A stretch of 64,000 bases of DNA. It comes from a virus. Shown piece after piece: positions 2,909-36,449 of this stretch. Under the pieces are notes generated by a model. It was given only the letters and a program-made list of their open reading frames with translations. It had not been told where the DNA came from and did not search any database. Every line of letters starts with the position of its first letter. Positions within the stretch are counted from its first letter, which is position 1. The stretch is taken from IMG/VR virus record IMGVR_UViG_3300021403_000005; one strand, 5' to 3'. Both the position numbers and the translations under genes were made by a program.

Positions 2909-3464
2909 TTGCGAATCCGCTTCCTATTTCCGAGTCTAGTCCGGCTATGGCTCGCGCTAATTCCACGCAACCCAACTGGGTATCGAAAGTACCGGGGGAC
3001 CATACCCCATCAGCAACGTATTTACCGCCTTGGTAAATCGAGGTGCCTGACCAGACATAGCCAGAAGGGCGTCCATGGTTGCGTGGGCCGAACCCGTTCC
3101 ATAGCTCCCATTCGTAGCAGGCCATGGGCCAAGTCCAGGTTGCGACCTTGGTAATTTCATCAAGAGTCAAAGCATCGGCGGCGCCAACCTCCCAAGAGGC
3201 AAAAGGCCCGCGTCCTTTCGGTACATGGATGGTCGGGTGACTAAGCGGGTCGCCATTACCAAGGTAAGAATTAAAAGATGGATTTTCCCGCTCAAACACC
3301 GGCATAACCCACAGCGCCGGTACACCGCAAAGCTTCTGCATTGCCAGGAATCGCTCACGATTAACTAAAAGGGTCTTGGCAACCGCAACAGCCTCACTGG
3401 ATCGCGTTGGTTGAGCATTAGCTAAATCGGCCATATATTCGGATTTTAGCTGATCGAAGTTCAT
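2895..3464 (-). CDS. Endolysin, lysozyme-family protein (COG5526-like)
   Basis: Motifs RE..F.SYLGNGDPL...T.HVPKGRGPF.SWE..A.DAL, E.WNGFG, S.YVWSGT..Y..GKYVADG and D.QLGC. Confidence 0.8.
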   Translation of the reverse strand: MNFDQLKSEYMADLANAQPTRSSEAVAVAKTLLVNRERFLAMQKLCGVPALWVMPVFERENPSFNSYLGNGDPLSHPTIHVPKGRGPFASWEVGAADALTLDEITKVATWTWPMACYEWELWNGFGPRNHGRPSGYVWSGTSIYQGGKYVADGVWSPGTFDTQLGCVELARAIAGLDSEIGSGFANALV

Positions 3465-6400: not shown

Positions 6401-7042
6401 CTTAAGCGGCGCCTCAAAAGCTTTAAGCGGGAACGCAGCCCAGGCAGCACCGGAGAACGCCCCCGAAATCTCCGCCTCATGCATGGCCCGTTCCCAGGCC
6501 CCGTTCGGATCGTGGGGGTCCTTTCTAAGTTCCTCGGCAAAGACCGGCCCCAAGGTTTGGGCAGCAGCACCTATGGCCATGCCCGTAGCGCCTCCCACGA
6601 GGCCGCCAGCAGGCCCAGCAGCGGCAGTGCCTAATCCAGCCCCAGCCATACCAGTAGCCATGGAAGGGGCTGCGGACCCCAACATATAGCCAAGCTTGGG
6701 GGCTAGCCTGCCCCAAGGCTCGGCAACGTCTTTCCAGGCCAACGGATCAGCGGCGGGAGAGGTGGGTTTGTTGGGGTCAGGAGTGGTGCCAGAGACAGCT
6801 TGGCCGGTCTGTTTAAGGCCGGTCAGCCCAGCCCCTATACCTTGGTATGTAGCCTCTAATACCCCTGGCATAGGATTCTCAGGTTGCTCAGGAGGCTTAA
6901 CGGGAGGTCCCCAGTTAGGGTCAGGTGCAGGCTCAGCTTGGGCCGTAGATATGGCTGGCCCCCAAAGAGAGTCATTCTGTGGGGGCGGGATCGGAGGGGG
7001 CGGAGATGGGGCTACAACAGGTCCCCAGTCGGTATCAGCCAT
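3461..7042 (-). CDS. Large internal virion (DNA ejection) protein, possible LPD38-like C-terminus
   Basis: 1193 aa; Pro-rich N-terminus, Gly/Ala-rich hydrophobic segment, helical body; last ejection-gene position before lysis; EMLANRDYFGYQIYD resembles LPD38. Confidence 0.65.
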   Translation of the reverse strand: MADTDWGPVVAPSPPPPIPPPQNDSLWGPAISTAQAEPAPDPNWGPPVKPPEQPENPMPGVLEATYQGIGAGLTGLKQTGQAVSGTTPDPNKPTSPAADPLAWKDVAEPWGRLAPKLGYMLGSAAPSMATGMAGAGLGTAAAGPAGGLVGGATGMAIGAAAQTLGPVFAEELRKDPHDPNGAWERAMHEAEISGAFSGAAWAAFPLKAFEAPLKNLVFQALGVQAPISVAEQATRNMVQGKPVTDSLQQAYAQGSVGTIVPALAHGLIAGGLGGPRADTSGRELTPPQQAAQAKLQAASQQAETLEQQAHAMVLPDQSTPQGQAAAKSIVDQRNDLFKQANDIRDAALHESWLANLPPDVTAKGVVAKSWTQNFMPELTSDKALQIDPIFAKFKSGVAQMRDAIISRAEDSYYRWNKVPAEDATRFMTSYEEGKLPQDLTDKYPWMQERAEAYKKYLDIANRNEAAAGSPYDFITNYFPHIWKDPVVARNVFKNYADTSPEVMGSNWFSKGRYYDLIQKGLDRGLELKSNNPEELVTMRLMSSADMVNKTNLLRELYSQGVAVPKDNAPGPIMNPMRNDPHPWQEIVAPNGKSWMIAPDAQPMWENAVVAKGLWANEGLPGTLFQKWMSLKNAWVPIKLGLSLFHPIHVMGISLSNNLSRAWNEAVGRGEQSIGRRFAAIPEALAQSITDTAMALPIGTPFVGKTWKEAWKTPGDDQNNLQKGITKIANEAGMSLQLSEQMRIRAKRDFSDAWNNNQYLKSVLPGMRLGVEKLTGWIFEQWIPNLKAAALARESAALFRRRPDLLDDQANRQVALRAIGRQIDNRFGEMFYGSLFWNRTLKDAAIGSFLSLGWNLGFAREFVGGALEPAARRLMSAPTPTRQLIRDTTTKSTNLFFYAMTSMIANALLNKAFSDDWPQEAMDYIFPRMGGLNTDGSPRRMSNPFYTREIPMVEKNIEDQQSPLYGLLQTAYHKMMYAPVAEMLANRDYFGYQIYDENAPAFQRAWQMGKSILNEDLNPMSIVGARRSLQLSGKPYGPTDIMKQITDPDVYMPMLGFGPAPAYASRSNIENHIVNLYSRHVAPVEKPFAESENAQQRADARTEYLGAMQRKDTAATSAAAKKLADLGVKSATIRKLQPGGGMVYMFSRLPASDQINTLENMQPVDFKKYYAKASKNTRDDQTIRALAQKYYGVQ

Positions 7043-10000
7043 TACGGACCCAGATATTGTCTAACGCCGTTCGGTGTCTGGTAATATTCTCCATGAACCG
7101 GCTTCTGGCCATCCTGTAACGGAAGCGGCTTGGTGGGCGAGGATTGCGTAGGTGTAGGTGCTGCACCCGCTCCCTGTGGTGCATTAGCCGGGGCTAGCGG
7201 CGGCAAGCCAGCTTGTAGCCGGTACTTGTTGGTGGTCCCGATAGGATCGGCTTGGTAAGCCGCAGCATCGTTCTTGGCCGCAGCGGCAGCCTGTGAGGCA
7301 ATGCTATTAGGCGTCTCAATCCCAGCATTGCGGCCAGCAAGTCTACCTACTGCTATCGGCTGGTGCGTGTCGGGATCGAGAATCTGGCCATGCTTCGGAT
7401 CGAAGATGCCAACATGGTATTGCCCATCAGCGCCGATGTAGTTAGTGGCCGAGAACTTGCCTTGCTCAAGTCGCGCCCGCTCAACATCGAGCTTGCTGGC
7501 TTCAAGAGCCTGCCTGCGCGAGTCCTCCATCATCTTCTCACCAAGATCGCGGCCCTTCTCGGCCGCTGACATGGTAGAATCCCATTGCTTGTCGAAGTTC
7601 TGTTCGGTGGCCGCTATGCCTTGGCCAATACCACGAATACCAAGCCTGTCGCCTGGAGGTGCAGCGAGGATATTGGCGCCCATACGGAACAGCGCATCGG
7701 ATCGCGTAGCCGGGTCCTGGAACTTGGATATGATGCCAGGATTCTGCGGCACGCTGCTCTGGTAGTTACGCAGATTGAGAACGTCCTGATCTCGTGTTCC
7801 TAGGCCAGTACGCGCCAAGCCAGGGTCTTGTGGAGCAGGAGGCGTTGTTACAGGTGGCCGCACTCGCGGCATCGTTGGTGGCGCCGTTCCAACAGTCGGC
7901 TGTGCAGCCGGAGGCGCCGGAACATCCGGTGTTGGATAAGCGCCCTTGGGCGCCCCAGCTTCAGCAGGTGCCGGAGTCGCGGGAGCGGCAGCAGCCGGAG
8001 CTAGTTGAGCCGGTTGCATAAGTCCAGGATGGGCTTTGATAAAGGCCAAACCAGGGCTGTCGCTCACTCCAACATAGTCAGGACTCGCCACATCAGGCAG
8101 TGTGTCATCAGCGCCGCCTTCATCGAAGTGCTGAATGCCACCCCCGCGCTTTTGGCCGAATGCCTGACGAATCTTTTGGTTGTTGGCCAATTCCATCATC
8201 TGGCCCATCTGCTCCAGATAATTACTGCCCTGTTCTGGATTAGGTGTTTGGGCGGGTAGCAATCTTGGCGGCATCATCAGTGTGCCAAAGTTCGGCTTGC
8301 CGGGCTGGATCATCGGATTACCGTTGGCATCGCGCTGCAACGGCACGCGGCCTCTCACGCGATTCAATGCATAAGGATTCGATGAATAGCCATAAGCATC
8401 CGGGGTTGGGCCGCCATCATCAAAGTGCAATCGCCCACCGGCTGCTTGAGCGCGTGGCGCGGTCTGCATTTGATGCATCGTTTGGAGGTAATCGTCTTGT
8501 GCAGTAGCCGCTTCGCCAGGATCGGCGGCGCCAGCCATGCCCATCACACCTTGCGGAATGATCGGATAAGGCGAGCCACCAGTATCGTAACCACGGACAG
8601 CGCCACCGCGCTTGGCCAGCGCCAGGAACGGCAGAATATCCGCGATGCTTGCGGCTCCCGCATCGGTTGCTGCCGCAGCGCCAACGTCAGCCGCTCCGGC
8701 CGCAGCATCAATACCAAGGCCAACATCGGCCGCTGCTCCAACATCGCTAGCTATGCCAATTCCTGCATCGGCAGCAGCGCCACTTGCGCTTAGGGCCGGA
8801 TCAATGCCTGCGCTAGCCAGTGAATAAGCTGGAGCATCGGCTGTTACTGAGGCAGCCGTTCCGCTGTAGTCGCTGGCATCAAGGCCCGGCAGCGGGTTTG
8901 CGGCACTTCCGCCATAAGCATCGGTAAGCGATGTGCCACCACCGTAGCTCGGGCTTGGCACGAGGGCGTTCTGGGCGGTCGTATAAAGATTGCCCAGCCC
9001 CTTGAAAGCTGAGCCAAGCTGAGCCGCAGTAGCGGCGCCAGTAAGCGGATTCGATTGGGTATTACTATTGGCAGCTTGTGGGATTTGGATATTCGGTTGC
9101 GGCATCGCCTTGATCTGCGAGCCAGGAACCTGAATAGACTGCCCCGGAGAACTGCCGCCGCCAGTAATGTTAACTGCATTAGCATCCCACGGCATATCGT
9201 CGGGGCTGCCGGATTGGCTGCCAATGCCAGGATCGCTGCCACCAATCGCGTAGTGGCCAATATGACCACCTACAGCGTAAGGATTAATGCGGCCACCAGT
9301 AGCACCTGTTCCTGTCTGACCAGCCCCAACGGTATTATTAGCAAAGCCCGTAACTGATCCTGGCGCTTGCGCTGCATTTGATCCAAGCGCATTGCCAAGA
9401 CCGCCAGCAATCAAGCCGCCACCAACGATAGCTTGTGGCCATGTCAGGCCAGGAGGCGTGATTGTCTCGCCGGTTTGACCGATCTGGGTCTGATAACCAC
9501 CCATGCCACCCAATGCAGGTAAGCCGATACCAGCCAAGAACTGCGCTTGTTGATACGGAAACGCCAACTGCTGAAGGTACTGCTGATACTGCGCTGTATC
9601 TTGGGCCTGTTGGGTCTGCTGTTGCAACCCACCCGCTTGAATCTGCGCTCCGGCGCCCTGAAGCCCGAATTGCTGTTGCTGTTGCGCAGCGCCAAGCCCC
9701 TGCGCATAGTTCTGCGCGTTCAAGCCAGCCAGCGTTTGATTGGCCGCTAGGCCCTGTTGATAGGCCAGTTGCGATTGACCAACCGCAACACGATCAGCGC
9801 CCACACCCCCTGCTGCTTGATTAAGCTGTCCGGTAACCTGTTGTTGCTGTGCGGCATTAACCTGCTCAATATTGCCCATCGTCGCATTGATAACCTGCGA
9901 CTGATAGGGATTCATGTACTGCTGAATCTGGCCGCTGGTTAATGGCTGAGAGCCGACCGCTTGAGTCTGCGCAATACCAGCCTGCTCAGTAGGATTTACG

Positions 10001-10164
10001 CCAGCGACAAGCTCTCCAGTATAAGGTTGATAGGGCGTGTTGGCGACGTTGGACGCCTGATTGTAGATGTTTTGAAAGCCCTGAAGCCCAGTCGGTGTAT
10101 AGGCGACGTTCTGATTGGTCTGTTGCTGGACCTGAGTGGGCGCCCCGCCCTTCCCTGTACCCAT
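7042..10164 (-). CDS. DNA transfer (pilot/ejection) protein
   Basis: 1040 aa; Q/A/G-rich N-terminus MGTGKGGAPTQVQQQ..YMNPYQSQVI typical of podovirus pilot proteins; repeated GG..[FY]xxGG motifs. Confidence 0.7.
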   Translation of the reverse strand: MGTGKGGAPTQVQQQTNQNVAYTPTGLQGFQNIYNQASNVANTPYQPYTGELVAGVNPTEQAGIAQTQAVGSQPLTSGQIQQYMNPYQSQVINATMGNIEQVNAAQQQQVTGQLNQAAGGVGADRVAVGQSQLAYQQGLAANQTLAGLNAQNYAQGLGAAQQQQQFGLQGAGAQIQAGGLQQQTQQAQDTAQYQQYLQQLAFPYQQAQFLAGIGLPALGGMGGYQTQIGQTGETITPPGLTWPQAIVGGGLIAGGLGNALGSNAAQAPGSVTGFANNTVGAGQTGTGATGGRINPYAVGGHIGHYAIGGSDPGIGSQSGSPDDMPWDANAVNITGGGSSPGQSIQVPGSQIKAMPQPNIQIPQAANSNTQSNPLTGAATAAQLGSAFKGLGNLYTTAQNALVPSPSYGGGTSLTDAYGGSAANPLPGLDASDYSGTAASVTADAPAYSLASAGIDPALSASGAAADAGIGIASDVGAAADVGLGIDAAAGAADVGAAAATDAGAASIADILPFLALAKRGGAVRGYDTGGSPYPIIPQGVMGMAGAADPGEAATAQDDYLQTMHQMQTAPRAQAAGGRLHFDDGGPTPDAYGYSSNPYALNRVRGRVPLQRDANGNPMIQPGKPNFGTLMMPPRLLPAQTPNPEQGSNYLEQMGQMMELANNQKIRQAFGQKRGGGIQHFDEGGADDTLPDVASPDYVGVSDSPGLAFIKAHPGLMQPAQLAPAAAAPATPAPAEAGAPKGAYPTPDVPAPPAAQPTVGTAPPTMPRVRPPVTTPPAPQDPGLARTGLGTRDQDVLNLRNYQSSVPQNPGIISKFQDPATRSDALFRMGANILAAPPGDRLGIRGIGQGIAATEQNFDKQWDSTMSAAEKGRDLGEKMMEDSRRQALEASKLDVERARLEQGKFSATNYIGADGQYHVGIFDPKHGQILDPDTHQPIAVGRLAGRNAGIETPNSIASQAAAAAKNDAAAYQADPIGTTNKYRLQAGLPPLAPANAPQGAGAAPTPTQSSPTKPLPLQDGQKPVHGEYYQTPNGVRQYLGP

Positions 10165-10671
10165 CTAGTGATTCCTGCCGTTCAATTTTGGAGGCATTGC
10201 ATTATACAAGAAGAAGCTGCCAGCCTCAGGTAAATGCCGTCTATAGAGACGTATTTTGGCCGCTGTTCTGACGTTGGATACTATCCCAATACTCAGCGGG
10301 ACATTAACACGATCCGCAAGATTGCGCGCGTAACCTATCAGGGTCTTAGCGTGGTTGGATTTGCGATGGTCTGGATGGACGAAGTTAGCGTATTCCTCAA
10401 GCATTATATCTTCGGAATACCAGTAGGAACTTAGGACCAGAAGTATAAAACCCTCTAGCTCTCCAACCGGACCAATAACACCCATAAACCCGCGTAGCCC
10501 ACCGTCAGTAGGATCAATCCGGTCGTAATCAAGAATGCGATCAAGTAAGTAATCAATCTTGCGCTCCGAGCGCTGAAACATCGCATTCTCGTCGTACAGC
10601 AGATCAAATAGCTTCCAAACCCCATCCCTATCTTCCGGTCCAGCGCGGCGTACAATCGAGGCGCAACTCAT
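10165..10671 (-). CDS. GNAT-family acetyltransferase within the ejection module
   Basis: VRRA.P.D, FILL, E...FVHPDHRKSNHAKTLI (variant of the acetyl-CoA-binding motif A). Confidence 0.75.
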   Translation of the reverse strand: MSCASIVRRAGPEDRDGVWKLFDLLYDENAMFQRSERKIDYLLDRILDYDRIDPTDGGLRGFMGVIGPVGELEGFILLVLSSYWYSEDIMLEEYANFVHPDHRKSNHAKTLIGYARNLADRVNVPLSIGIVSNVRTAAKIRLYRRHLPEAGSFFLYNAMPPKLNGRNH

Positions 10672-13600
10672 CTCTTCTTAGGTCCAGGGAGCTTCTTGAG
10701 GTCTTGAATAAGCTTCTTGCGAACATGTAATACCATGTGGTCGAGAATCTCGTGGCCATGTTTCATATCGCCATGCCCAATTCGCAATACCACCTCGGGT
10801 GGAATTACGGTTTCTCCGCCTGCGGCGACGATAGGTACGGTATTGTGATTGTCCTCATGAACGCCGCCAGCGGCCATGATCCCAGGAGTGCCACGCAGGT
10901 TTAACCTAGGCATCCGTAGGCTGCTCTGAGCGGCGCGACCATAGTTAACCTTGGGTGTGGGGAGCGCCTTGTCGGCTGAACCGTAAGGCCCCATGCTGAA
11001 CATCTTATTGATGATGGCTGACCCAGCCATCGAGTTACCTTGTCCAACCCCAGAAACTACATCTGCGGGCAGTATGTAGGAGCCGCCCTTGACCCCCATA
11101 TTGATCTTGTCGGTTCGGCCAGGAATCGAGGAATGAATCATGCCGACATGCGGGGTCTTGATATTACCAACTCCAGGCATTCCTCCACCTGGAGGGTGGC
11201 CAATGCTGGATCGATAGAATCGTTGGCTAAACTCGTTCAGCTTAGGCTTGATCCCAGGTGCGCTTGGGGCGCCGCCAGGACCGTAACGCCGAAGGGTTTG
11301 GGTAGCCGTATCTGCCTTGGACATGGTGCCTATCCTACCACCTTCTTGCCTAGAAGGATTCTGGTTTTCATCGAGTTGATAGAGAGCGCTTCCGGCGCCA
11401 GCCGTACCCATGACGCCCGCCAGCGGCCAGGGGTTGTGGAGATGTTCTGGCGCGAACTTAGCTTTAGGGCTACGAAGCGTACCTTTCGTATTCAAGAAAA
11501 TGTACTGAGATTGATCTGGTCCACCTGTTTCAGCTTGGTAAAATGGGCTATCACTACCATTATCTCGGATATGATGAACCACAAGGAGGTCGTGGCCGCG
11601 TTCTTTGGCCATACGGATCGCGCGGTCCATCGTTTGGCCAGTATAATGGCCTGCGGTACTGACCTTTCTCCAATCTAACTGTGCTGGATTATCAGCCTTG
11701 CTAATGTAAGTACCACCAAGAGGGCCTGAGTAACCCTTGGCAATCTCAGGGTGGTCAGCGGCAAACCATCCCGGTTCATAGCCCTTATAATTTGGGTCCG
11801 GCAGTTCGCCAGGATAGCCTCCCTTCGGAGAAGAGATGCCAGTCTTGTAGAGAGGAATCTTAAGATTCCAGTTGTTCTGTTTAGCCCACTCTTTGGGATT
11901 GCTAACATGAGTAATGTTGGGAAGTTCTACCTCTGGACTGGGATCAACGTGTTCTGGTTCATATTCTGACCACTTCGGAATTGGCTCGATAGCATTCTTC
12001 ACGAATTGATCTTTTTGAGACTGAGAGTATCCAGTAGCGCCACCACCTTCAGGTGGCTTGGGTTTTACATCCTCACCTTTCTTATAAAGCTCTATAAGAT
12101 TGTCACTAATCTGCTTTTGGGCAGCATTAAAGTCGTCTCCATTAGAAACATGCGGTTCCATATTCTCCAGGACGCTCATTACGTTCTTATAGAACAATTT
12201 TTGATCTGACAGATAATGAGTTGGTGCTGCCGCCTTGTAGGTATCGGTATGGGTCGCAAGGTACTTGCCTTCAGTATCGGGTAGTTTGTCAAACGGAGAG
12301 CTACCTGTGAGTTTCTTTAGAAGCTCGATATTGGAACCAATAGGCTGCTGAGCAGCGTCCGGGAGGCTACGGTAAAGCTGCTCAGCAGTATGTGGATTTA
12401 TCTCATCGGCTACGTGCCATAGCTCCGCAGCAGCATGGAGTGGTGTTTGAGCATTCTCCCATAGACTTTTGGCGGCCTGCTTAGCGTCCCATTTACTTAA
12501 GGTGCCAGCAGCAATCTTATCGAGATATTGTTGACCACCCCACAGCTTGGCTGTCGCCTTAGCTTGCATCTCCGCCAGAATCGTTTGATTGGGAGTCTTA
12601 ACGGGCGGAGGCTCAGGTATCGGAAAATGGTCATCTTCCTGAGCATGAGCGTTGTCGCCGGACTGCCACCACTCGTTGCCCGGCTCATCAGGCTTCCACT
12701 CTTCACCCGGCTCAGGACCGCGCCATGGCTCCAGAGTATGCAGCGCCTCCTTAGTGTTTAAGCCAAGAATATCGCGCTGCACCTGTTGAGGTAGGTGAGA
12801 GAATATGCTGTTGGACATGGCGGGACCGTTATCGCCATAGATAACTTCTATCTGCTTGAGATATTGATTAATTGGCTGCGCGTTCCAACCATGCTTTTCA
12901 ATAACCGCATCAGCTATCTGCTTAGCAATCTGAGTAGGATCATTCTCCTTTGGAAGAATCTGGTTAACCACGCTGTCGCGGCGAGCAACGAGAGTGTTAT
13001 AAAGCTTGGTGGCTTCACCGATATTCGATGGGCCGTACTGGTTAACGAGGTCCCCAATTTGCTCGTTGGAAATAGCTCCAATGCGCCCGGCAGACTCCAT
13101 CATCTTGCCCTTAGGCATTCCACCAAACACTGCGGCAGAACTAGCATTCTTATTGGGGTCTGCCATAGTCTGAAGCTCGGTGACTTCAGGCCCGAAGGCA
13201 CCGGGATTCTTGAGAGCGCCCTGCGCGCGGTAACGCAGCGCACCACCCATGTCTATGCGATTGGCGCCTGCGGTCTTATCGACAATGATGTTATCGTTAT
13301 TTAGCCCCACTACATCCCAATTAGCGAGCCACGCATCGACAGGAAAGTGAGACTGAAGATCGTATATGTTATTATATTCACTAGGATGGTAATCAGGTAG
13401 TAAATTACCTTCAATCTGCTTACTTGCTATCGCGGGCTTACCGTTAAGCTGCGTGAGATAAATCTCTGGCGTTGGCACTCCGGCAGCCTTGTAAAGCTCA
13501 GCGGCAAGCTTCTCATTCTTGGCGTGTTCAAGCGTTGGCGGTGTCTTGATGTAGTAGCGGTCGCCGCTGTCCAAGTCCTCGTACCAGCCGCCAGGATTGC

Positions 13601-14633
13601 TACCCTCCTGCTTGCCAACCTTGGTAAAGTTCTTAACGAGATTAGGATCGAGATCAAAGAACTTGGCCGCCGCTTTCGCCGCTGGCGCTGCTTCCCTTGC
13701 AGCCATCCCCTCTCCCGGCATTGGGAGCATGAACATAGCTGATGTAGCGAAAGCAGCCTGTTCCTCAGGAGTCATCTCGCCGATGCGAGATACATCACCA
13801 ATCCCAGCCATGTCGGCAATGCGTTGCGCCGAGCGTTTCGGATCGGCAACATCCGGATACGGGTTAACCGGCTGGATTGTCTCTCCTGGCTTGGGAACGG
13901 CTTGATTGCCAAGATCGACTGGCGCCGCAGGCTGGTACTGCGCTGGTGCTGCTGGTGCTGGAATCGGTCCAACCTGCGGCACGCCCTGCTGTTTGGGTAC
14001 GGGCCGATCACCGAGATCAACTGGTGGCGCAGGAATGGTTATACGTGGAACGCCATTCGGGCTTGGTAGCGCCCCCCACGCCTTCGATTCATCCTCATCG
14101 TCGGTGCCACCTTCGGCGTATTTCTTAATAGCGCCGCCCCGTCGATTAGAGACCAGTGGATATGATTGATCCTGATGTAGTCTTACATCCAATTCATCTG
14201 CTGTAGGACCACTAGACTTGGGCGGATTTGCGCGAAGAATAGCTAGCGCGGCGGCTGTATTTGATAATCCGAAATCAGTAGCATCAGCTTCAGCGTGTGG
14301 CGCTGGTGGTAATTCTTGAAGTTGTCGATAAGGTGTTAGTGGATGCTGCAACATCCTACCGAATTCTGGTGGTCCCATCTGAAACGTATTCTCGAAGGCT
14401 CTCTGCCAAAGCGGCTTAACTCGATCATCTTCAACATTAGTCGAGGGACGGAAATCGGATGTATCCATTCCGCCTCCGTCAGCACGCTTGGCTCTGCCGC
14501 CGTATTTCTTGCCGTACTCACGGGCAGTGCGATATGCAGCAGCGATGGCTTGTTTTTGAGGATGCCCAGCGTGCATCATCTCGCGAATGTTAGTGGAAAT
14601 TGCCTGACGCGAGCCTGACTTAATTAAGGGCAT
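10668..14633 (-). CDS. Polyvalent internal virion protein with a PI3/4K-HipA-like kinase domain and an ART-PolyVal-like ADP-ribosyltransferase domain
   Basis: Kinase: GSNPGG, YYIK, NEKLA, DAWLANWDVVGLNNDNI, RIDMGG. ART-like: LYKTG, GWFAAD.PEIAKGYS, RGHDLLVV, QYIFL, LRSPKAKF. N- and C-termini match this phage type (MPLIKSGSRQAISTNIREM; GRTD..ILPADVVSGVGQGNSMAG). Confidence 0.7.
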   Translation of the reverse strand: MPLIKSGSRQAISTNIREMMHAGHPQKQAIAAAYRTAREYGKKYGGRAKRADGGGMDTSDFRPSTNVEDDRVKPLWQRAFENTFQMGPPEFGRMLQHPLTPYRQLQELPPAPHAEADATDFGLSNTAAALAILRANPPKSSGPTADELDVRLHQDQSYPLVSNRRGGAIKKYAEGGTDDEDESKAWGALPSPNGVPRITIPAPPVDLGDRPVPKQQGVPQVGPIPAPAAPAQYQPAAPVDLGNQAVPKPGETIQPVNPYPDVADPKRSAQRIADMAGIGDVSRIGEMTPEEQAAFATSAMFMLPMPGEGMAAREAAPAAKAAAKFFDLDPNLVKNFTKVGKQEGSNPGGWYEDLDSGDRYYIKTPPTLEHAKNEKLAAELYKAAGVPTPEIYLTQLNGKPAIASKQIEGNLLPDYHPSEYNNIYDLQSHFPVDAWLANWDVVGLNNDNIIVDKTAGANRIDMGGALRYRAQGALKNPGAFGPEVTELQTMADPNKNASSAAVFGGMPKGKMMESAGRIGAISNEQIGDLVNQYGPSNIGEATKLYNTLVARRDSVVNQILPKENDPTQIAKQIADAVIEKHGWNAQPINQYLKQIEVIYGDNGPAMSNSIFSHLPQQVQRDILGLNTKEALHTLEPWRGPEPGEEWKPDEPGNEWWQSGDNAHAQEDDHFPIPEPPPVKTPNQTILAEMQAKATAKLWGGQQYLDKIAAGTLSKWDAKQAAKSLWENAQTPLHAAAELWHVADEINPHTAEQLYRSLPDAAQQPIGSNIELLKKLTGSSPFDKLPDTEGKYLATHTDTYKAAAPTHYLSDQKLFYKNVMSVLENMEPHVSNGDDFNAAQKQISDNLIELYKKGEDVKPKPPEGGGATGYSQSQKDQFVKNAIEPIPKWSEYEPEHVDPSPEVELPNITHVSNPKEWAKQNNWNLKIPLYKTGISSPKGGYPGELPDPNYKGYEPGWFAADHPEIAKGYSGPLGGTYISKADNPAQLDWRKVSTAGHYTGQTMDRAIRMAKERGHDLLVVHHIRDNGSDSPFYQAETGGPDQSQYIFLNTKGTLRSPKAKFAPEHLHNPWPLAGVMGTAGAGSALYQLDENQNPSRQEGGRIGTMSKADTATQTLRRYGPGGAPSAPGIKPKLNEFSQRFYRSSIGHPPGGGMPGVGNIKTPHVGMIHSSIPGRTDKINMGVKGGSYILPADVVSGVGQGNSMAGSAIINKMFSMGPYGSADKALPTPKVNYGRAAQSSLRMPRLNLRGTPGIMAAGGVHEDNHNTVPIVAAGGETVIPPEVVLRIGHGDMKHGHEILDHMVLHVRKKLIQDLKKLPGPKKR

Positions 14634-14909: not shown

Positions 14910-15461
14910 ATGAGAGAGTCGTGGCGGCGTGTAATTCTGAATAGAGAGATTCTGCCTTATGAAGTCTCCAATCAAGGCCAAGTAAGACGGCTGCCTGGAC
15001 CAGACGGCGGCGGTCACACATGGCCACTTATGATAATGAGCCAACATACGCACCGTGCTGGGTACAAGCAGCTTGGACTGAGGTGGGTAAGTCAGCACGG
15101 TAGGAAATCCAAGGTCATCGTAGTTCACAAACTTGTCGCGTTTGCCTTTCTTGAGCCGCCTCCCGGTCAATATGGACGCGGGAAGATAGCCATTAACCAT
15201 AAAAACTCTATAAAGTCCGATAACAGAGCCGAGAATCTTGAGTGGGTTACATATCAACAGAACAGCAATCACGCTATGATTAATGGTCGAATGTCTGTTG
15301 GAGAAAGCAATCCGAATAGCCGATTTACTAATGACGATGTTCTTGAAATCAGACGTAGATTCGATGCGGGAGAAAGCATGAGGTCCCTGGCACGATCTTT
15401 TAATAGCAGCCGATGCCCTATTATGATGATTTGCAAAAGGTTGACTTGGAAACATCTTTAA
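14910..15461 (+). CDS. NUMOD4-HNH homing endonuclease with C-terminal HTH, antisense to the late operon
   Basis: YEVSNQGQVR (NUMOD4), VHKLVAFAF, INHKNSIKSDNRAENLEWVT (HNH), GESNPNSRFTNDDVLEIR. Confidence 0.9.
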   Translation: MRESWRRVILNREILPYEVSNQGQVRRLPGPDGGGHTWPLMIMSQHTHRAGYKQLGLRWVSQHGRKSKVIVVHKLVAFAFLEPPPGQYGRGKIAINHKNSIKSDNRAENLEWVTYQQNSNHAMINGRMSVGESNPNSRFTNDDVLEIRRRFDAGESMRSLARSFNSSRCPIMMICKRLTWKHL

Positions 15462-16354
15462 CCTGCGCGCACAAGCGTTATCCCGCCAACGTAGCCAGGG
15501 GGCAATACTGGGGCCGGTGTAGGAGATGAACTGCCTGCTGTGATATTAGTAACGGCAGTCCCAGTGAAGCCAGTACCGGCGCCGCCGCCAGTAGCGGCCG
15601 TATTCGGTCCTCCCTGTAAACCACTCTGATTCAAAGTGTGAGAATGCCCAGGGTCGGTAATGGGAACTGGCGGCATATTTTGGCTAGTGAGCGCAACACT
15701 CTGCGAGCCGCCCGCAGCGAATAGCGTTGTTCCATCAATACCTCCAGTCGAGGTAATACGACCTGTACCTTGACTAAGATTAAATCGAGTTCGCCCCCGT
15801 GAATCTGGGAGCGTCGTGCCAATAAGATTAGCCAGTGCTGGATAGGTAGCCGAACTAAAAGTCGTACCGTCGCAATTCAGGTAAGGGTTAATCGAGCATC
15901 CAGTTACCCAAGCCGGAACAGACGATCCGGCATATTCCCAGTACGTTCCAATCCGACCAAAATTGCGAAACTTGACGTTCGTACCATCAACAAGAATATC
16001 AAAGGGTTCATACGGGGGGCACGCTATAGTCTGTCCTACACCAGCCCCCACAGTAAGCTGAACGATAAACTGGGATGATCCAGTACAGAGATTCTGAACG
16101 GTATAAAAACCACTGACACCAACTGGAAACTCAATAATGCAACTTCCTGTTAGTGTGCTTTGAAGAGTAAGAAAGACGTTCTGAGACTGGGCGGTGCTAA
16201 GAACCGTGACGCCGTTATTAAGGGTAAGCGTGGTAAAGCCACCGAGAGCCGCATCTAGGATGCTCATATTGCCATTTACAGGCACGTCCCAAGTGCCCAC
16301 AAAGGAGCTATTCGCCGGAAGCGTCAGGGCCTTATTGGTGGTAAAGGTAACCAT
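15458..16354 (-). CDS. Tail fibre or tail-collar domain protein
   Basis: Collar motif P..YLNCDG..FS.ATYPALA.LIG..LPDSRGR, FAAGGSQSVALT..NMP, DPGHSH. Confidence 0.8.
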   Translation of the reverse strand: MVTFTTNKALTLPANSSFVGTWDVPVNGNMSILDAALGGFTTLTLNNGVTVLSTAQSQNVFLTLQSTLTGSCIIEFPVGVSGFYTVQNLCTGSSQFIVQLTVGAGVGQTIACPPYEPFDILVDGTNVKFRNFGRIGTYWEYAGSSVPAWVTGCSINPYLNCDGTTFSSATYPALANLIGTTLPDSRGRTRFNLSQGTGRITSTGGIDGTTLFAAGGSQSVALTSQNMPPVPITDPGHSHTLNQSGLQGGPNTAATGGGAGTGFTGTAVTNITAGSSSPTPAPVLPPGYVGGITLVRAG

Positions 16355-16357
16355 TGC

Positions 16358-18400
16358 TTAGCGCCTTCCTGACACCGCGTACCGGAATCGAATGCGGCCC
16401 AATCGCCAAAACGCCTGATTATTACTCTGGACCTGGACCGACATTAATCGGGCACGCAGCCGCAGATTAATGTATTCTGTAGCCTGAGTCACGGTATAAG
16501 GCCCGTACTGCCGAGGTGTATCGCCGGGATAGTCAGCGCTATAGAAAGTCACATTCACACTGGCGGTATCGGTGCCGTAAGTCCCCCAGATGAAGTCCGG
16601 CAGAATCCAGTCCACGAAGGCCAAATCCTGCCCCTCGGTCAGCGCCCACCAGCCGCTTCTAAAGCTTGGCAGAGTTACGCCGGTAATCTGTACTCCGGTT
16701 TCGTGCTGATAGAGATAACCATTATTATCACAGCCAATAGGCATTCCCAGCGGGGAAATATCTATCCAGGCTGTACGAGCAAGAGAACCGAAATCCCACT
16801 CAAACTCATTGCCCTCGATGTGAACCTTCACATAGGAATCGTTCTCTCCGGCACTCATTGCCGATGGATAGAACCAAGTGACCTCGCTAAAGGCCGAATT
16901 GATCGCACAGCAAACCTTTGTTTGGTTAGCGGCGCTGATGTTCTGGAAGATCGCGTCCCACACCGAACATGGAATCGGCACAACACCATTGGGGCCAACA
17001 GTGTAGAAGTTATTAGTTCCGCACCAATAGGGATTACCAGCCATGATTGCGCAGGCATGAGGGCCTATCCAACCGCAACCGGCGCCAACGCGAGTGAAGT
17101 TAAAGATGACCGTGCCACCTACATACTGCATGATCCAAACATCAACATCAGTCGAGATCAGTCCGTAGGTGGGAGCTTGTAATCCGCCGATGATCTTGGA
17201 CCCAGTAGGCAGATGAAAGCTGCCAGCGGCGGTAGCCGACGTGACTGCCCAGTTGGTATAGTCGGCGCTATCGCTCCAGCGCACAATCAGTTGGTCCTGA
17301 ACGCCAGTCGATTGAACAGACCCATAGCAAACGAGAATCTGTTGCGGTTGGGAGATGAATATTCCATTATTGAAGAATGGTGCTTGCGGAACGACCTGAG
17401 CATTAAATGGCCCACCATCAACGGACCACGCATAAACCGCTCCGCCATAGGGGCACGCCAAAAGAATCTCGCCCCAATTATCCAGTGTCCAGTCGGTAGC
17501 CGTAATCGGAGTACCAGCCGTAGGACCCGTACCAGTGCTGCCAGTGCCAAACCCACCAATGCCAAACGGTCCCGTTCCAAACCCACCACCCTGTACCTGA
17601 GGACCCGGCGTGATGTAGTAAACTGCTTGTACGTTACCGCCATTCATAGTCGATGCAGCGGTAGTGGTTGCTGGATTGGCAGCAGTAATGGTGAAGGTAG
17701 TCGAATCGAGGATGCTGTTGATATAGTAGCGTCCCTGAATCGTTAAACCGCCGACAGATGTTGGTGCAATAAACTGCTCATACAACCCCACAATGGAAAC
17801 GTAATTGTTGTTAGGGATGGCGCCAACAACAACGCCGGAGTTAGCTGAGGTGGTAAAAGTAAGAAGCAGTCCGCTGCTGGTTATAGTCGTTGTAGCAGCG
17901 ACGCTGGATATGATGGTATATTGTCCGCTGCTCGGCACAGTAGCAATCGGATAGGCGCCATTGATGAAGAGATTGCCGATAGCAACTGGGGTGTTGAAGT
18001 ACACCGTATCGTAAATGGATGCCGTGAGGTTCTCATCGGTAACCGTGACCACGAAATTGGCACCACTTCCCGTAGAGCTTGAGATGGAAAAGTTAGGCGC
18101 AAATGTAGAGATGAAAGTCTGCGGTGTAATGTCTCTGATAGAGCCGTTCTTGATAACGACAAGATTCTTGGTGGCTGCCACTGCCAACCAATCATTGAAA
18201 TTGGAATCGACCCAGGCATGAAGCTCTCGAATCGTAGAGCCTATTGCAGTGTTATTGAATAACTGCCAGCCGCCATAGGTCTGAATTAAGCCTTCTTTGT
18301 AGCGGATAAGCTGAGATTGAGAGACACCAGCAGAGTTCAATGTGGCCGTTTGTTGAGTATCTACCCCCGGCTTTAACTGCACAGCCCCCATTGGTGCCAT
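16358..18400 (-). CDS. Tail nozzle / DNA-stabilisation protein (P22 gp10-like)
   Basis: 680 aa beta-rich; TDWTLDNWGEILLA, IVRWSD..DYTNW, AGSFHL..GSKI, FWRLGRIRF; position between adaptor and collar genes. Confidence 0.7.
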   Translation of the reverse strand: MAPMGAVQLKPGVDTQQTATLNSAGVSQSQLIRYKEGLIQTYGGWQLFNNTAIGSTIRELHAWVDSNFNDWLAVAATKNLVVIKNGSIRDITPQTFISTFAPNFSISSSTGSGANFVVTVTDENLTASIYDTVYFNTPVAIGNLFINGAYPIATVPSSGQYTIISSVAATTTITSSGLLLTFTTSANSGVVVGAIPNNNYVSIVGLYEQFIAPTSVGGLTIQGRYYINSILDSTTFTITAANPATTTAASTMNGGNVQAVYYITPGPQVQGGGFGTGPFGIGGFGTGSTGTGPTAGTPITATDWTLDNWGEILLACPYGGAVYAWSVDGGPFNAQVVPQAPFFNNGIFISQPQQILVCYGSVQSTGVQDQLIVRWSDSADYTNWAVTSATAAGSFHLPTGSKIIGGLQAPTYGLISTDVDVWIMQYVGGTVIFNFTRVGAGCGWIGPHACAIMAGNPYWCGTNNFYTVGPNGVVPIPCSVWDAIFQNISAANQTKVCCAINSAFSEVTWFYPSAMSAGENDSYVKVHIEGNEFEWDFGSLARTAWIDISPLGMPIGCDNNGYLYQHETGVQITGVTLPSFRSGWWALTEGQDLAFVDWILPDFIWGTYGTDTASVNVTFYSADYPGDTPRQYGPYTVTQATEYINLRLRARLMSVQVQSNNQAFWRLGRIRFRYAVSGRR

Positions 18401-18402
18401 GA

Positions 18403-19116
18403 TTACACCCTGGGCGGCTGAACAAGAGGATCGGGAATCTGGTTAGTCCAAGCTTGGCTCTGGTACTTCTTGCGAAGCTCCTCGACGTTAGCCGACTGAA
18501 TCAACTTACCATATTGAGCTTCCCACGATTGAGCCATTTGCGGATTATCTGATTGGGCACCAAAGTCCCGCATATAACCAGCCGCAAAGACCATGCTCGC
18601 AGCCACGAATAAGTCAGGCAACATCTGCGTCAGAATAGTGGATGAATTACCAGACGAAAGTGGAGTTGGACGTTGTGTTCCAATGATGATACACTGGTAT
18701 GAAGAATTCGGAGTCGGCCCTACAAGAATCTGCGCATTCGTTGCCATAGCAAAAAACTCAGGAACGCCTTGTCCAACAGAGTTAGACGGACAAGTTACAT
18801 CCAGAAAGTCTCGGCTGACATTCACCAACGATACACGATTGCCTAATGGCGACAGGGCGCTCGCTGGTGTGGTTATCAATACTTGCTCAACAACCAAAAA
18901 TGTCCCGATTGAAGTAGGTAGGATGAATGACTTGCTGTTGGTGGTAAGAGAGCCGGTAGTATCCACTACGCGAGTGGCCAAGAGATCGAGTTCTCTGTAC
19001 AGTCGTTGTTCAGCGTAATCAATCATGCCGGGTTCCATAGTCTGGAAATTCGGATCGGCGCTGCTGATAGCAGTAATGTTGGCAATCTGACTGGTATAAC
19101 TCGTATAATTTATCAT
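18403..19116 (-). CDS. Head-tail adaptor
   Basis: IDYAEQRLYREL, VGPTP.SSY, RP.PLSSGN.ST.LT...PDLFVAASMVFA..YMRD. Confidence 0.7.
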   Translation of the reverse strand: MINYTSYTSQIANITAISSADPNFQTMEPGMIDYAEQRLYRELDLLATRVVDTTGSLTTNSKSFILPTSIGTFLVVEQVLITTPASALSPLGNRVSLVNVSRDFLDVTCPSNSVGQGVPEFFAMATNAQILVGPTPNSSYQCIIIGTQRPTPLSSGNSSTILTQMLPDLFVAASMVFAAGYMRDFGAQSDNPQMAQSWEAQYGKLIQSANVEELRKKYQSQAWTNQIPDPLVQPPRV

Positions 19117-28939: not shown

Positions 28940-29242
28940 CTATTTTCCCGAGTGCGGAGGCGGATTGCCACCTGCCACAACAGCCTTGACGTGGGCGCTG
29001 GAGAACGGGCTGTGGTCGCTGCCAGTCTTGGACGAACTCAGGTGCGTATGCGTGCCAGCGGCACCGCCACGGGCAAACTTGTCCACCCGGCCACCTGACT
29101 TACGGCCAGGAACAGCACCACCAGCCTTCTTCTGAATCGCGCCCGGCTTGTCCTTCTTTTCCTTGGCTTCCTTCTCAACATTAGGATTACCATAGGCGTC
29201 CATAACCTTACCGCCGTGCGCTCTTTTATGACGTGCTGCCAT
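28940..29242 (-). CDS. Small basic internal head protein with GG motifs
   Basis: AGGA RBS before ATG 29242; K/R-rich; GGRVDKFARGGAA. Confidence 0.7.
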   Translation of the reverse strand: MAARHKRAHGGKVMDAYGNPNVEKEAKEKKDKPGAIQKKAGGAVPGRKSGGRVDKFARGGAAGTHTHLSSSKTGSDHSPFSSAHVKAVVAGGNPPPHSGK

Positions 29243-35891: not shown

Positions 35892-36449
35892 TTAGCTCCC
35901 AGGGAGAGGCTTGCCGCCATATTTTCTTGATTTCTGTAGTCGCCCCTCGCCGCTGAAAGAGCCAGCAGACATACCGACTTTTCCACCGCGTTTATAAACC
36001 GGGCCGCCAAGCTTACGCATCGGCATACCGCCTGGAGGCGGCCCACCCATGCCCGGAGGGCCACCCATCCCAGGGGGCGGCATACCAGGAGGCGGAGCGC
36101 CCATACCGGGCGGAGGCATCGGTGGCGGTCCACCAGCACCCGGAGGTGGCATAGGCGGTCCACCAGGAGCACCACCAACCGCATGGCCACCGTGAGGTGC
36201 AACCATGATATTGATGTGCGTACCCTTTTTACCCTTAGCCGCACCCCCGCGAGCGAACTTATCCACCCTGCCTCCAGCCTTATGGCCAGGAGCTTTCATC
36301 TCATCGTGCTTCTTCAGCATCTTCTTAATCAGATGCCGATCTTCCTTTTCGTCACCATGAGCAGCGCCACCACGCTTGAAATGCTTCATCTCATGGGCGC
36401 GTTTACGCCCAGCGTGGACTTCTTTGTGGGCTTCATAGGGATGGGCCAT
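35892..36449 (-). CDS. Basic, Pro/Gly-rich internal head protein with GG motifs
   Basis: HFKRGG, GGRVDKFARGGAA, KGTHINIMV, polyproline tract, AGSFSGEGRLQK. Confidence 0.7.
   Translation of the reverse strand: MAHPYEAHKEVHAGRKRAHEMKHFKRGGAAHGDEKEDRHLIKKMLKKHDEMKAPGHKAGGRVDKFARGGAAKGKKGTHINIMVAPHGGHAVGGAPGGPPMPPPGAGGPPPMPPPGMGAPPPGMPPPGMGGPPGMGGPPPGGMPMRKLGGPVYKRGGKVGMSAGSFSGEGRLQKSRKYGGKPLPGS

What the first reader, a model, noticed from the sequence alone, without database searches (positions are those of the whole stretch)
11450..13620. Ejection protein carrying both kinase-like and ADP-ribosyltransferase-like effector domains
Seen: at about 12920-13620, GSNPGG (Gly loop), YYIK (beta3 Lys), NE (alphaC Glu), NWDVVGLNNDN (catalytic loop) and RIDMG (DFG-like). 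At about 11450-11865, LYKTG, GWFAAD.PEIAKGYS, RGHDLLVV, QYIFL and LRSPKAKF. Both sit between the conserved termini of an internal virion protein, and the stretch near 11.9-12.3 kb looks AT-richer than its flanks. Established: these patterns match PI3/4K-HipA-like kinases and the ART domain of phage polyvalent proteins; injected ARTs (T4 Alt) and phage kinases (T7 gp0.7) aid host takeover. The usual first His of the ART is Lys here, so activity is uncertain. Inference: two modifying enzymes are injected with the DNA before any phage gene expression.
Basis: partly seen in the sequence, partly recalled or inferred. Interest (0 to 1): 0.75.

Follow-up and report, generated by a model that had tools for sequence, protein, structure and literature searches.

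The report
Phage virion protein carrying kinase-ART cassette
An uncultured soil phage encodes, among its DNA-ejection genes, a 1,321-residue carrier protein whose swappable middle holds a HipA/CtkA-type kinase with an intact-looking active site and a divergent ADP-ribosyltransferase-fold domain, probably delivered into the host with the DNA; it is a new variant of the known "polyvalent" phage effector proteins.

Summary
One ORF (window 10668-14633, minus strand, 1,321 aa) contains every motif quoted, at the stated coordinates.

- **ART-like domain (aa 909-1085).** It folds with pLDDT 89.7. An unbiased structure search returned almost only ADP-ribosyltransferase folds. 41 of 91 relatives hit Pfam ART-PolyVal, but this protein does not.
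- **ART catalytic positions.** The strand-5 acidic residue is also replaced, by an invariant Gln. Its chemistry is therefore uncertain.
- **Carrier and cassette.** The N- and C-terminal modules define a carrier family of at least 472 proteins of 302-1,732 aa. A phage 83-95% identical in DNA carries unrelated sequence in the same slot, so the cassette is swappable.
- **Location.** The gene lies after the nozzle and fibre genes and before a GNAT gene and two giant proteins.

Injection and both activities remain inference. I found no paper describing this kinase family or the pairing. Earlier notes of this scan reported similar kinase-ART cassettes on other DNA.

The parts
10668..14633 (-). Whole gene, 1,321 aa (P0001). 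A GGTGAG Shine-Dalgarno-like site lies 4-9 nt upstream of the ATG. The stop overlaps the start of the next gene (ATGA).
14454..14633 (-). N-terminal carrier module (aa 1-60), conserved. It matches PHROG 2423 and is DUF6496-like in relatives.
14472..14501 (-). First basic di-glycine motif, GGRAKRADGG (aa 45-54), at a module border.
   Evidence: DNA similarity to relative L003 stops near here
14106..14138 (-). Second di-glycine motif, GGAIKKYAEGG (aa 166-176), followed by DDEDESKAWG. This is the left border of the swapped cassette.
11322..14072 (-). Swappable cargo cassette (aa 188-1104). It has no DNA similarity to the otherwise 83-95% identical relative L003, which carries unrelated sequence in this slot.
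13662..14072 (-). Pro/Ala-rich, probably disordered linker (aa 188-324) with a short internal repeat (PPVDLGDRPVPK / APVDLGNQAVPK).
   Evidence: GC 0.606
12939..13661 (-). CtkA/HipA-like protein-kinase-fold domain (aa 325-565). Key residues are Gly-loop 344-349, K363, E374, D440, N448 and D461.
11910..12938 (-). Inter-domain linker (aa 566-908), mostly helical-looking and weakly conserved. Its last third (aa 761-908, about 11910-12350) is the AT-rich stretch.
11379..11909 (-). Divergent ART-PolyVal-like ADP-ribosyltransferase-fold domain (aa 909-1085). Key residues are K930 (His position), F957, Y968, Q1043 (catalytic-acid position), and the invariant or near-invariant E953, D1015, D1024 and R1054.
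   Evidence: AF2 pLDDT 89.7; fold searches; Pfam hits through relatives; hhalign; column counts
10671..11186 (-). C-terminal carrier module (aa 1150-1321). It is Gly-rich with an internal repeat (GSYILPADVV / GGETVIPPEVV). DNA similarity to L003 resumes at window 11321, and the protein is 91% identical to the relative P0208 from aa 1103.
10165..10671 (-). Downstream GNAT-like acetyltransferase gene (168 aa), translationally coupled. It is kept in relatives whatever the cargo.
3461..10164 (-). Two giant downstream proteins (1,040 and 1,193 aa), the likely core ejection proteins. The positional counterpart in MW202675 is annotated internal virion protein D.
15458..19116 (-). Upstream tail genes: SU10-type adaptor (18403-19116), nozzle-like 680-aa protein (16358-18400) and a tail-collar fibre (15458-16354).

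Best explanation
The gene encodes a cargo-carrying internal virion (ejection-module) protein of an uncultured ~75-kb short-tailed soil phage. It is a polyvalent-type effector.

A short N-terminal module and a ~170-residue C-terminal module form a conserved carrier. The carrier presumably gets the protein into the capsid core and out through the tail. Between them lies an exchangeable cassette with two parts:
1. A CtkA/HipA-like Ser/Thr-type kinase whose ATP-binding and catalytic residues are all kept, so it is probably active.
2. About 300 residues downstream, an ADP-ribosyltransferase-fold domain of the ART-PolyVal lineage. Its NAD-pocket aromatic residues are kept, but its His and catalytic acid are replaced by Lys and an invariant Gln. 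It is either a weak or unusual NAD-using enzyme or an NAD/ADP-ribose-binding module.

The most likely mode of action is as follows. The protein is made late, packed into the head and released into the cell with the DNA. There the kinase, and possibly the ART-like domain, modify host proteins before any phage gene is expressed, either to take over the host or to disarm defences.

Shown here: gene structure, folds, homology, residue conservation, the carrier/cargo architecture and the cassette swap. Inferred: packaging, injection, both enzyme activities and the targets.
For: Kinase:
- The AF2 model has pLDDT 96.8.
- Foldseek returned only kinases.
- In 57 relatives below 60% identity to each other: G344 53/57, G348 55/57, K363 54/57, E374 56/57, D440 53/57, N448 55/57, D461 55/57.
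- Relatives give sub-threshold Pfam HipA_C/HipA_2 hits.

ART-like domain:
- The AF2 model has pLDDT 89.7.
- In a search of 48,161 chains, ranks 1-26 are all ART folds: NatT 7.6, ParT 7.2, MbcT 7.2, Xre-RES 7.0, AcrIF11 6.8, PARPs, diphtheria and exotoxin A.
- The viral structure library (BFVD) returns proteins named PolyVal ADP-ribosyltransferase.
- 41 of 91 relatives hit PF18760, best E 2.4e-11.
- hhalign to canonical ART-PolyVal domains gives 88% and 71.5% probability.
- E953, Y968 and Q1043 are invariant, and D1015, D1024 and R1054 nearly so, which argues for a conserved functional site.

Carrier and cargo:
- The C-module family has 472 proteins of 302-1,732 aa with varied cargo: NUDIX, inorganic pyrophosphatase, LPD23, ART-PolyVal.
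- A collinear relative is 83-95% identical in DNA except across window 11322-14072.

Virion context:
- The gene follows the adaptor, nozzle and fibre genes and precedes a GNAT gene and two giant proteins.
- The same slot in MW202675 holds a 193-aa cargo-less form next to 'internal virion protein D'.
- The kinase domain occurs in a 2,146-aa Yersinia phage protein that its depositors annotated as particle-associated, and in many MuF head-protein fusions.
- The ART-like subfamily also occurs in a 415-aa protein encoded between portal and capsid genes.

Pairing: among 120 C-module proteins, 31 carry both domains, 4 the ART-like domain only and 2 the kinase only. Wherever both are present the kinase precedes the ART-like domain (KINend-to-ARTstart spacing 45-713 aa in 57 proteins, median ~300).
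Against: - There is no direct evidence that this protein is in virions or is injected. The phage is uncultured.
- The carrier modules match no ejection protein of known structure or function.
- P0001 itself reaches no Pfam, NCBIfam or PDB sequence threshold for either domain.
- Residue equivalence with the CtkA/HipA catalytic residues was inferred from motif order and conservation. It was not read from a residue-level superposition.
- Kinase folds can carry other chemistries (AMPylation, glutamylation, small-molecule or lipid phosphorylation).
Confidence: 0.65

Rival explanations
1. The ART-like domain is not a protein ADP-ribosyltransferase. It is an NAD+-degrading or NAD+-phosphorolysing enzyme like the RES-domain toxins, or a non-catalytic NAD/ADP-ribose-binding module that regulates or targets the kinase. 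The kinase is then the only protein-modifying activity.
For: - Four of the top five structural matches, and the sixth, are toxin-antitoxin ART-fold toxins (NatT, ParT, MbcT, Xre-RES, VPA0770). From my own knowledge, several of these are RES-domain toxins that consume NAD+ rather than modify proteins.
- The strand-5 acid is an invariant Gln and the His is mostly Lys.
- An invariant Glu (E953) sits before strand 2, where canonical ART-PolyVal has none.
- One relative gives a weak Pfam RES hit, E 0.13.
Against: - Homology by sequence is to ART-PolyVal, not to RES.
- From my own knowledge, PARP-type enzymes that lack the catalytic Glu are still mono-ADP-ribosyltransferases, so Gln does not exclude transfer.
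- Draining NAD+ seems counter-productive for an infecting phage.
Confidence: 0.25
2. The kinase-fold domain acts on a non-protein substrate such as a lipid, nucleotide, sugar or antibiotic-like small molecule, or carries out another ATP-dependent chemistry. It is not a protein Ser/Thr kinase.
For: - In relatives the domain travels with nucleotide-handling modules: NUDIX, inorganic pyrophosphatase, WGR.
Against: - The clearly best match, by more than 4 Z units, is CtkA, and HipA is also close. From my own knowledge both are protein Ser/Thr kinases.
- Most bacteria lack phosphoinositides.
Confidence: 0.15
3. The central domains are catalytically dead relics that serve only as bulk or structural parts of the internal core, so the protein is a purely mechanical ejection protein.
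For: - The ART-like domain has lost two canonical catalytic residues.
Against: - All kinase catalytic positions are 93-98% conserved across relatives sharing only about 40% identity.
- The ART-like domain keeps invariant polar residues.
- The cassette is dispensable for the carrier, since close relatives carry other cargo or none. That fits an accessory effector better than a structural need.
Confidence: 0.1
4. The protein is not delivered into the next host. It acts late inside the producing cell, or on the cell envelope from the outside as a tail-associated protein.
For: - It is encoded in the late operon.
- A published reading of HipA-family kinases encoded between portal and capsid genes in 'Gratiaviridae' favoured a late or immunity role (PMC8008677).
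Against: - The conserved carrier termini, the position among the ejection genes, the MuF fusions of the same kinase domain and a particle-associated homologue all point to packaging.
- ATP and NAD+ are cytoplasmic.
Confidence: 0.1

Closest known systems
Polyvalent proteins of phages and conjugative elements (Iyer, Burroughs, Anand, de Souza, Aravind 2017, PMC5512222)
   Same: - One polypeptide combines unrelated enzyme domains.
- It is encoded with virion genes and predicted to be injected early.
- An ART of the ART-PolyVal lineage is among the domains.
- A GNAT lies next to the ART theme.
- Relatives carry LPD23, NUDIX and similar domains.
   Different: - The kinase that paper describes is a C-lobe-less Ser/Thr/Tyr-type kinase with a His-Asp catalytic pair, found in Verrucomicrobia-Chlamydia and Bacteroidetes. 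The kinase here is CtkA/HipA-like, with NWD...DN and RIDxGG motifs and a helical C-lobe.
- The carrier here is a defined N plus C module pair in a podophage ejection operon.
- The ART has K-F-Q in place of H-Y-D.
Helicobacter pylori CtkA (PDB 3AKJ/3AKK/3AKL) and HipA-family toxin kinases
   Same: - The order of Gly-loop, Lys, Glu, Asn-x-Asp catalytic loop and Mg-binding Asp is shared.
- Relatives give sub-threshold HipA_C hits.
   Different: - Sequence identity is about 15%.
- This protein has no Pfam HipA hit.
- The domain is embedded in a phage virion protein, not in a toxin-antitoxin pair or a secreted bacterial effector.
- No antitoxin-like partner was seen.
Pfam ART-PolyVal (PF18760), prototype in the Roseovarius Plymouth podovirus 1 vRNAP, and the related ART-fold toxins NatT, ParT, MbcT and Xre-RES
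   Same: - The fold is shared.
- Four motifs align: LYKTG/LYHGT, GWFAAD/GLFFTN, IAKGY/LARDY, RGHDLL/GGYDGA.
- 41 of 91 relatives hit the Pfam model.
   Different: - His is replaced by Lys (the family has K 64, R 11, H 9 of 91).
- The strand-5 Asp/Glu is replaced by an invariant Gln.
- There are extra invariant Glu and Arg residues.
- The query itself does not reach the model.
Phage T4 Alt (head-packaged, injected ART) and T7 gp0.7 (early protein kinase)
   Same: They are functional analogies: modification of host proteins at the very start of infection. Alt is packed in the head and injected (PMC5512222). Alt also helps evade the Mokosh defence system (PMC13716836).
   Different: - Alt is an R-S-E ART of another clade.
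- gp0.7 is an unrelated kinase that is expressed early, not packaged.
- Neither combines both activities in one protein.
MuF polymorphic toxins of temperate phages (Jamet et al. 2017, PMC5576092)
   Same: - A conserved head-associated carrier domain is joined to exchangeable toxin or effector domains.
- The same kinase domain is fused to MuF in dozens of proteins, often together with an R-S-E ART.
   Different: - The carrier here is not MuF.
- The cargo sits in the middle, between two carrier modules, not at the C-terminus.
- No immunity gene is evident.
Podophage ejection proteins (T7 gp14-16; cyanophage A4 gp26-29, PMC12002296)
   Same: - The gene position after the nozzle and fibre genes matches.
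- The cargo-less form is about gp14-sized.
- Enzymatic domains embedded in ejection proteins have precedents: lytic transglycosylase in T7 gp16 (my own knowledge), and lytic transglycosylase and M23 peptidase in A4 gp28 (PMC12002296).
   Different: - No sequence homology to any of them was detected.
- Their enzymes attack the cell wall, whereas these domains need cytoplasmic ATP and NAD+.

Membership tests
Polyvalent proteins (Iyer et al. 2017) | Two or more unrelated effector or enzyme domains in one large polypeptide | tested here: met
   A kinase fold and an ART fold lie in one 1,321-aa ORF.
Polyvalent proteins (Iyer et al. 2017) | Encoded by a phage or conjugative element beside virion or packaging genes | tested here: met
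   Terminase, portal, adaptor, nozzle and fibre genes are on the same strand upstream.
Polyvalent proteins (Iyer et al. 2017) | Packaged in the particle and delivered into the recipient cell | not testable with these tools
   Only synteny and annotation of homologues are available.
Pfam ART-PolyVal (PF18760) | Score above the curated gathering threshold (31.2 bits) | tested here: not met
   P0001 gives no hit even at E<=10. 41 of 91 homologous domains hit at E<=1, best 2.4e-11.
Pfam ART-PolyVal (PF18760) | ADP-ribosyltransferase fold | tested here: met
   [not shown]
Pfam ART-PolyVal (PF18760) | H-Y-D active-site configuration (His strand 1, Tyr strand 2, Asp strand 5; PMC5512222) | tested here: not met
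   The positions hold K930, F957 and Q1043. Family counts are K64/R11/H9, F89/91 and Q91/91. The strand-5 equivalence rests on motif comparison, because hhalign did not extend that far.
HipA/CtkA-like kinases (Pfam HipA_C PF07804, HipA_2 PF20613) | Score above the Pfam gathering threshold | tested here: not met
   P0001 gives no hit. Relatives reach 18-25 bits against a 30.5-bit cut-off.
HipA/CtkA-like kinases (Pfam HipA_C PF07804, HipA_2 PF20613) | Protein-kinase-like fold closest to CtkA/HipA | tested here: met
   [not shown]
HipA/CtkA-like kinases (Pfam HipA_C PF07804, HipA_2 PF20613) | Conserved ATP-binding Lys, helix-C Glu, catalytic Asp, Asn and Mg-binding Asp | tested here: inconclusive
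   The candidate residues are 93-98% conserved and in the right order. No residue-level superposition on CtkA or HipA was available.
HipA/CtkA-like kinases (Pfam HipA_C PF07804, HipA_2 PF20613) | Toxin-antitoxin gene pair (HipB-type partner) | tested here: not met
   The neighbours are virion genes and a GNAT gene; no HTH antitoxin is present.
Podophage ejection / internal virion proteins | Gene in the late operon after the tail (nozzle) genes, next to giant internal proteins | tested here: met
Podophage ejection / internal virion proteins | Sequence or structural homology to a characterised ejection protein | tested here: inconclusive
   No PDB, Pfam or named PHROG hit was found for the carrier modules. 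The carrier modules were not folded.
T4 Alt / R-S-E ARTs | Arg-Ser-Glu active site | tested here: not met
   The motifs are of the H-Y-[DE] type with K-F-Q. No Pfam ADPrib_exo_Tox hit was found.

The most novel reading that the evidence does not exclude
The CtkA/HipA-like kinase and an ADP-ribosyltransferase-fold domain form an obligate two-part injected effector unit.

The evidence is that the kinase recurs in one polypeptide with at least four different ART families. These are R-S-E toxin type, DRAT, canonical ART-PolyVal and this K-F-Q subfamily. Within this carrier family the two domains almost always occur together and in the same order.

The two could act in sequence on one host target or on NAD/ADP-ribose. 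For example, the kinase might phosphorylate an ADP-ribosylated product, or the Gln-type ART domain might sense NAD/ADP-ribose and gate the kinase. That would be a previously undescribed class of phage takeover or anti-defence system.
Probability: 0.15. Interest if true: 0.8.

Novelty: new variant of a known kind. Interest (0 to 1): 0.55.

Why it matters
Injected phage enzymes act before any phage gene is expressed. They can therefore decide whether host defences fire. Apart from T4 Alt and a few others they are almost unstudied.

This locus contributes four things:
1. A large kinase family in phage virion proteins that no Pfam or NCBIfam model detects in this protein. There are at least 678 members in one length band, including cultured Felix-O1-like and Gordonia phages, where the host protein is annotated only as an ADP-ribosyltransferase or as hypothetical.
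2. A conserved kinase plus ART-fold pairing that suggests coupled action.
3. A carrier with clear module borders.
4. A natural near-isogenic pair of phages that differ only in the cassette.

Together these would allow clean tests of what such cargo does for host range and counter-defence.

Tried and rejected
- **Direct family searches of P0001.** Pfam on the whole protein and on five segments, PHROGs, NCBIfam, and PDB by sequence gave nothing. The only exception was PHROG 2423 on aa 1-45.
- **Profile-versus-PDB sequence searches of the three domain alignments.** These gave only spurious hits: ribosomal protein L23 and designed TIM barrels. HipA appeared at E 2.1.
- **Megablast of 25 kb of the window against known phages.** No match.
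- **Interaction model of the kinase domain against the ART-like domain.** No verdict, score 0.00. This is not evidence either way.
- **Attempts to build a canonical ART-PolyVal alignment from P0033.** Only the query itself came back, and tblastn in phages found nothing. I used the Roseovarius podovirus 1 vRNAP prototype instead.
- **The genome search.** It could not be used because no whole genome is held for this window.
- **A global-mode hhalign run.** It gave a meaningless alignment and was discarded.
- **The alternative cargo of the close relative P0208.** It had no Pfam or PDB match and only weak hits to hypothetical phage proteins.
- **Reading the AT-rich stretch as a separate recent insertion.** Considered and rejected. 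The swap borders lie elsewhere (aa 188 and about 1104), and relatives align across the linker.
- **Literature searches.** I found no description of this kinase family or of the kinase-ART pairing. The library is incomplete.

Full report
**The gene.** The finding lies inside a single ORF on the minus strand, window 10668-14633, of 1,321 residues. A Shine-Dalgarno-like GGTGAG precedes its ATG. Its stop overlaps the start of the next gene in ATGA. The kinase-like motifs lie at aa 344-463 (about 13245-13604) and the ART-like motifs at aa 928-1060 (11454-11852). The AT-richer stretch is also real. GC is 0.438 at 11900-12349, against 0.528 +/- 0.036 for the window, and only 0.7% of 450-bp windows are at or below 0.43. 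It corresponds to the linker just before the ART-like domain.

**Context.** The window is most of an uncultured ~75-kb soil phage. It has no close relative among deposited phages. On the same strand, in order of transcription, lie:
- large terminase, portal and head genes;
- a SU10-type adaptor, a 680-aa nozzle-like protein and a tail-collar fibre;
- a 74-aa gene, then the target gene;
- a translationally coupled GNAT-like gene;
- two giant proteins of 1,040 and 1,193 aa;
- in the relative L003, a GH108 lysozyme gene at the matching position after the 1,193-aa gene.

This is the layout of a podophage late operon, with the ejection (internal virion) genes after the tail genes. In the distantly related record MW202675 the same slot holds a 193-aa protein that matches only the C-terminus of the target. 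It is followed by an acetyltransferase and a protein annotated internal virion protein D.

**Kinase-like domain (aa 325-565).**
- Pfam, NCBIfam and PDB sequence searches find nothing for it.
- It nevertheless has 678 significant homologues among proteins of 726-2,312 aa alone.
- An alignment of 57 relatives, mutually below 60% identical (A1), gave an AlphaFold model with mean pLDDT 96.8.
- Foldseek returned only kinases, led by H. pylori CtkA.
- The candidate functional residues are conserved in 93-98% of the 57 sequences: G344 and G348 of the Gly-loop, K363, E374, D440 and N448 of the NWD...DN loop, and D461 of RIDxGG. W435, N438, G464 and K475 are invariant. This is the pattern of an active enzyme.
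- The equivalence to the CtkA/HipA catalytic residues is inferred from motif order, not from a residue-level superposition.
- Some relatives give sub-threshold Pfam HipA_C or HipA_2 hits.

**ART-like domain (aa 909-1085).**
- A search of 1.84 billion cluster representatives found only 92 relatives, so this is a much rarer family.
- The model built from 91 aligned domains (A2) has pLDDT 89.7.
- Foldseek against the PDB gave only weak rows, but they were enriched for ARTs.
- The viral library returned proteins named PolyVal ADP-ribosyltransferase or ART-PolyVal-like, with E from 8e-6 upwards.
- By sequence, P0001 does not reach Pfam ART-PolyVal, but 41 of the 91 relatives do at E<=1, best 2.4e-11.
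- The family profile aligns to a canonical ART-PolyVal domain (P0033) with 88% probability. It aligns to the prototype in the Roseovarius Plymouth podovirus 1 vRNAP with 71.5% probability.
- In that alignment LYKTG pairs with LYHGT, GWFAAD with GLFFTN, IAKGY with LARDY, and RGHDLL with GGYDGA.

**ART catalytic positions.** Across the family the position is K 64, R 11, H 9 of 91. The strand-2 aromatic is Phe in 89 of 91. The later Tyr (Y968), which from my own knowledge corresponds to the nicotinamide-stacking Tyr of PARP and diphtheria toxin, is invariant. Canonical members have Asp or Glu there (ADVIVI in P0033, EIMVV in the prototype). Here it is Gln in all 91 sequences. That equivalence rests on motif comparison, because hhalign did not extend that far. 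E953 is invariant too, and D1015, D1024 and R1054 are nearly so. The site is therefore conserved, but it is not the canonical H-Y-D site. I read it as either an unusual NAD-using enzyme or an NAD/ADP-ribose-binding module. From my own knowledge, PARP enzymes that lack the Glu still mono-ADP-ribosylate, so Gln does not by itself mean the domain is dead.

**Carrier and cassette.**
- The C-terminal 170 residues define a family of 472 proteins of 302-1,732 aa. The N-terminal ~60 residues recur with them and are DUF6496-like in relatives.
- In the 120 best C-module proteins, 83 have neither domain, 31 have both, 4 have the ART-like domain only and 2 have the kinase only. Wherever both are present the kinase comes first; across 57 proteins with both, the gap between them is 45-713 residues, median about 300.
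- Other cargos include NUDIX, inorganic pyrophosphatase, LPD23 and canonical ART-PolyVal.
- The closest relative (JGI contig of 74,469 bp, L003) is collinear and 83-95% identical in DNA across the whole structural block. Across window 11322-14072 (aa 188-1104) there is no similarity at all.
- The protein of that relative (P0208, 1,096 aa) is 91% identical over the last 209 residues. It shares the AEGGxDDEDESKAWG border motif but carries unrelated cargo.
- The kinase plus ART-like block is therefore an exchangeable cassette with sharp borders. The AT-rich stretch is inside it, not at a border.

**Support for a virion location from other carriers.**
- The same kinase domain is fused to MuF head proteins in dozens of proteins, often with R-S-E ARTs, DRAT, WGR or NUDIX.
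- It sits in large proteins of Felix-O1-like and Gordonia phages. One is a 2,146-aa Yersinia phage protein that its depositors annotated as an ADP-ribosyltransferase toxin and particle-associated.
- The ART-like subfamily also ends a 415-aa protein encoded between P22-type portal and capsid genes.

**Comparison with the literature.**
- Polyvalent proteins and their ARTs are described in PMC5512222. The kinase family in that paper has a His-Asp catalytic pair, lacks the C-lobe and is centred on Verrucomicrobia and Bacteroidetes. That does not fit the domain here.
- HipA-family kinases encoded between portal and capsid genes were noted in 'Gratiaviridae' and were given a late or immunity reading (PMC8008677).
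- MuF toxins give the carrier-plus-cargo precedent (PMC5576092).
- T4 Alt gives the injected-ART precedent and is now linked to evasion of the Mokosh defence (PMC13716836).
- I found no paper on this kinase family or on its pairing with ARTs.
- Earlier AI notes of this scan report similar kinase-ART cassettes and swappable ejection cargo on other DNA. I treat those as leads only.

**Verdict.** One correction applies: the ART-like domain has also lost its catalytic acid. The locus is a new variant of the known polyvalent-effector theme, not a new kind of system. Packaging, injection, both activities and the targets remain inference.

Noticed in passing
window 29063-29095, 36243-36275, 14472-14501, 14106-14138 (all minus strand): A basic di-glycine motif (GG-x3-K/R-x-A-x-GG) occurs four times in virion-module proteins. 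It is identical, GGRVDKFARGG, in two small head-module ORFs. In the target it flanks module borders. In homologues (P0048, P0049, P0067, P0101) a similar motif sits between the ART-like and C modules. It may be a cleavage or docking site.
   Followed up: partly
L003:10241-12637 (protein P0208, about aa 80-877): In the near-identical relative the cassette slot holds about 800 residues of unrelated sequence. It contains an HEVNH (zincin-like HExxH) motif. It has no Pfam or PDB match and only weak hits to hypothetical phage proteins.
   Followed up: partly
window 10165-10671 (-): A GNAT-like acetyltransferase gene is translationally coupled (ATGA) to the target. It is kept in L003 and in MW202675 whatever the cargo, so it belongs to the ejection module and not to the cassette.
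   Followed up: partly
window 14139-14471 (-), about aa 55-165: An extra segment of about 110 residues lies between the two di-glycine motifs. It is absent from the close relative L003, where the motifs are merged into one. Its third-position GC is low (0.37 over aa 61-187).
   Followed up: no
proteins P0002-P0009, P0011, P0013-P0017: Many relatives carry two tandem copies of the kinase domain. Some also carry DRAT (PF07357) or an inorganic pyrophosphatase domain.
   Followed up: no
P0047 aa 1024-1085 and about 20 similar proteins: In one subfamily a WGR domain, otherwise typical of PARPs, sits directly upstream of the kinase domain.
   Followed up: partly
[not shown]
   Followed up: partly
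window 10671-11186 (-), aa 1150-1321: The C-terminal carrier module contains an internal repeat (GSYILPADVV and GGETVIPPEVV) and runs of invariant Gly. No known family or structure matches it. PHROG 11341 (unknown function) is hit by 12 of 38 relatives.
   Followed up: partly
L006:2895-4142: A 415-aa protein that ends in the same K-F-Q ART-like subfamily domain is encoded between a P22-type portal gene and the capsid gene of another uncultured phage. This is a second, independent head-module carrier.
   Followed up: partly
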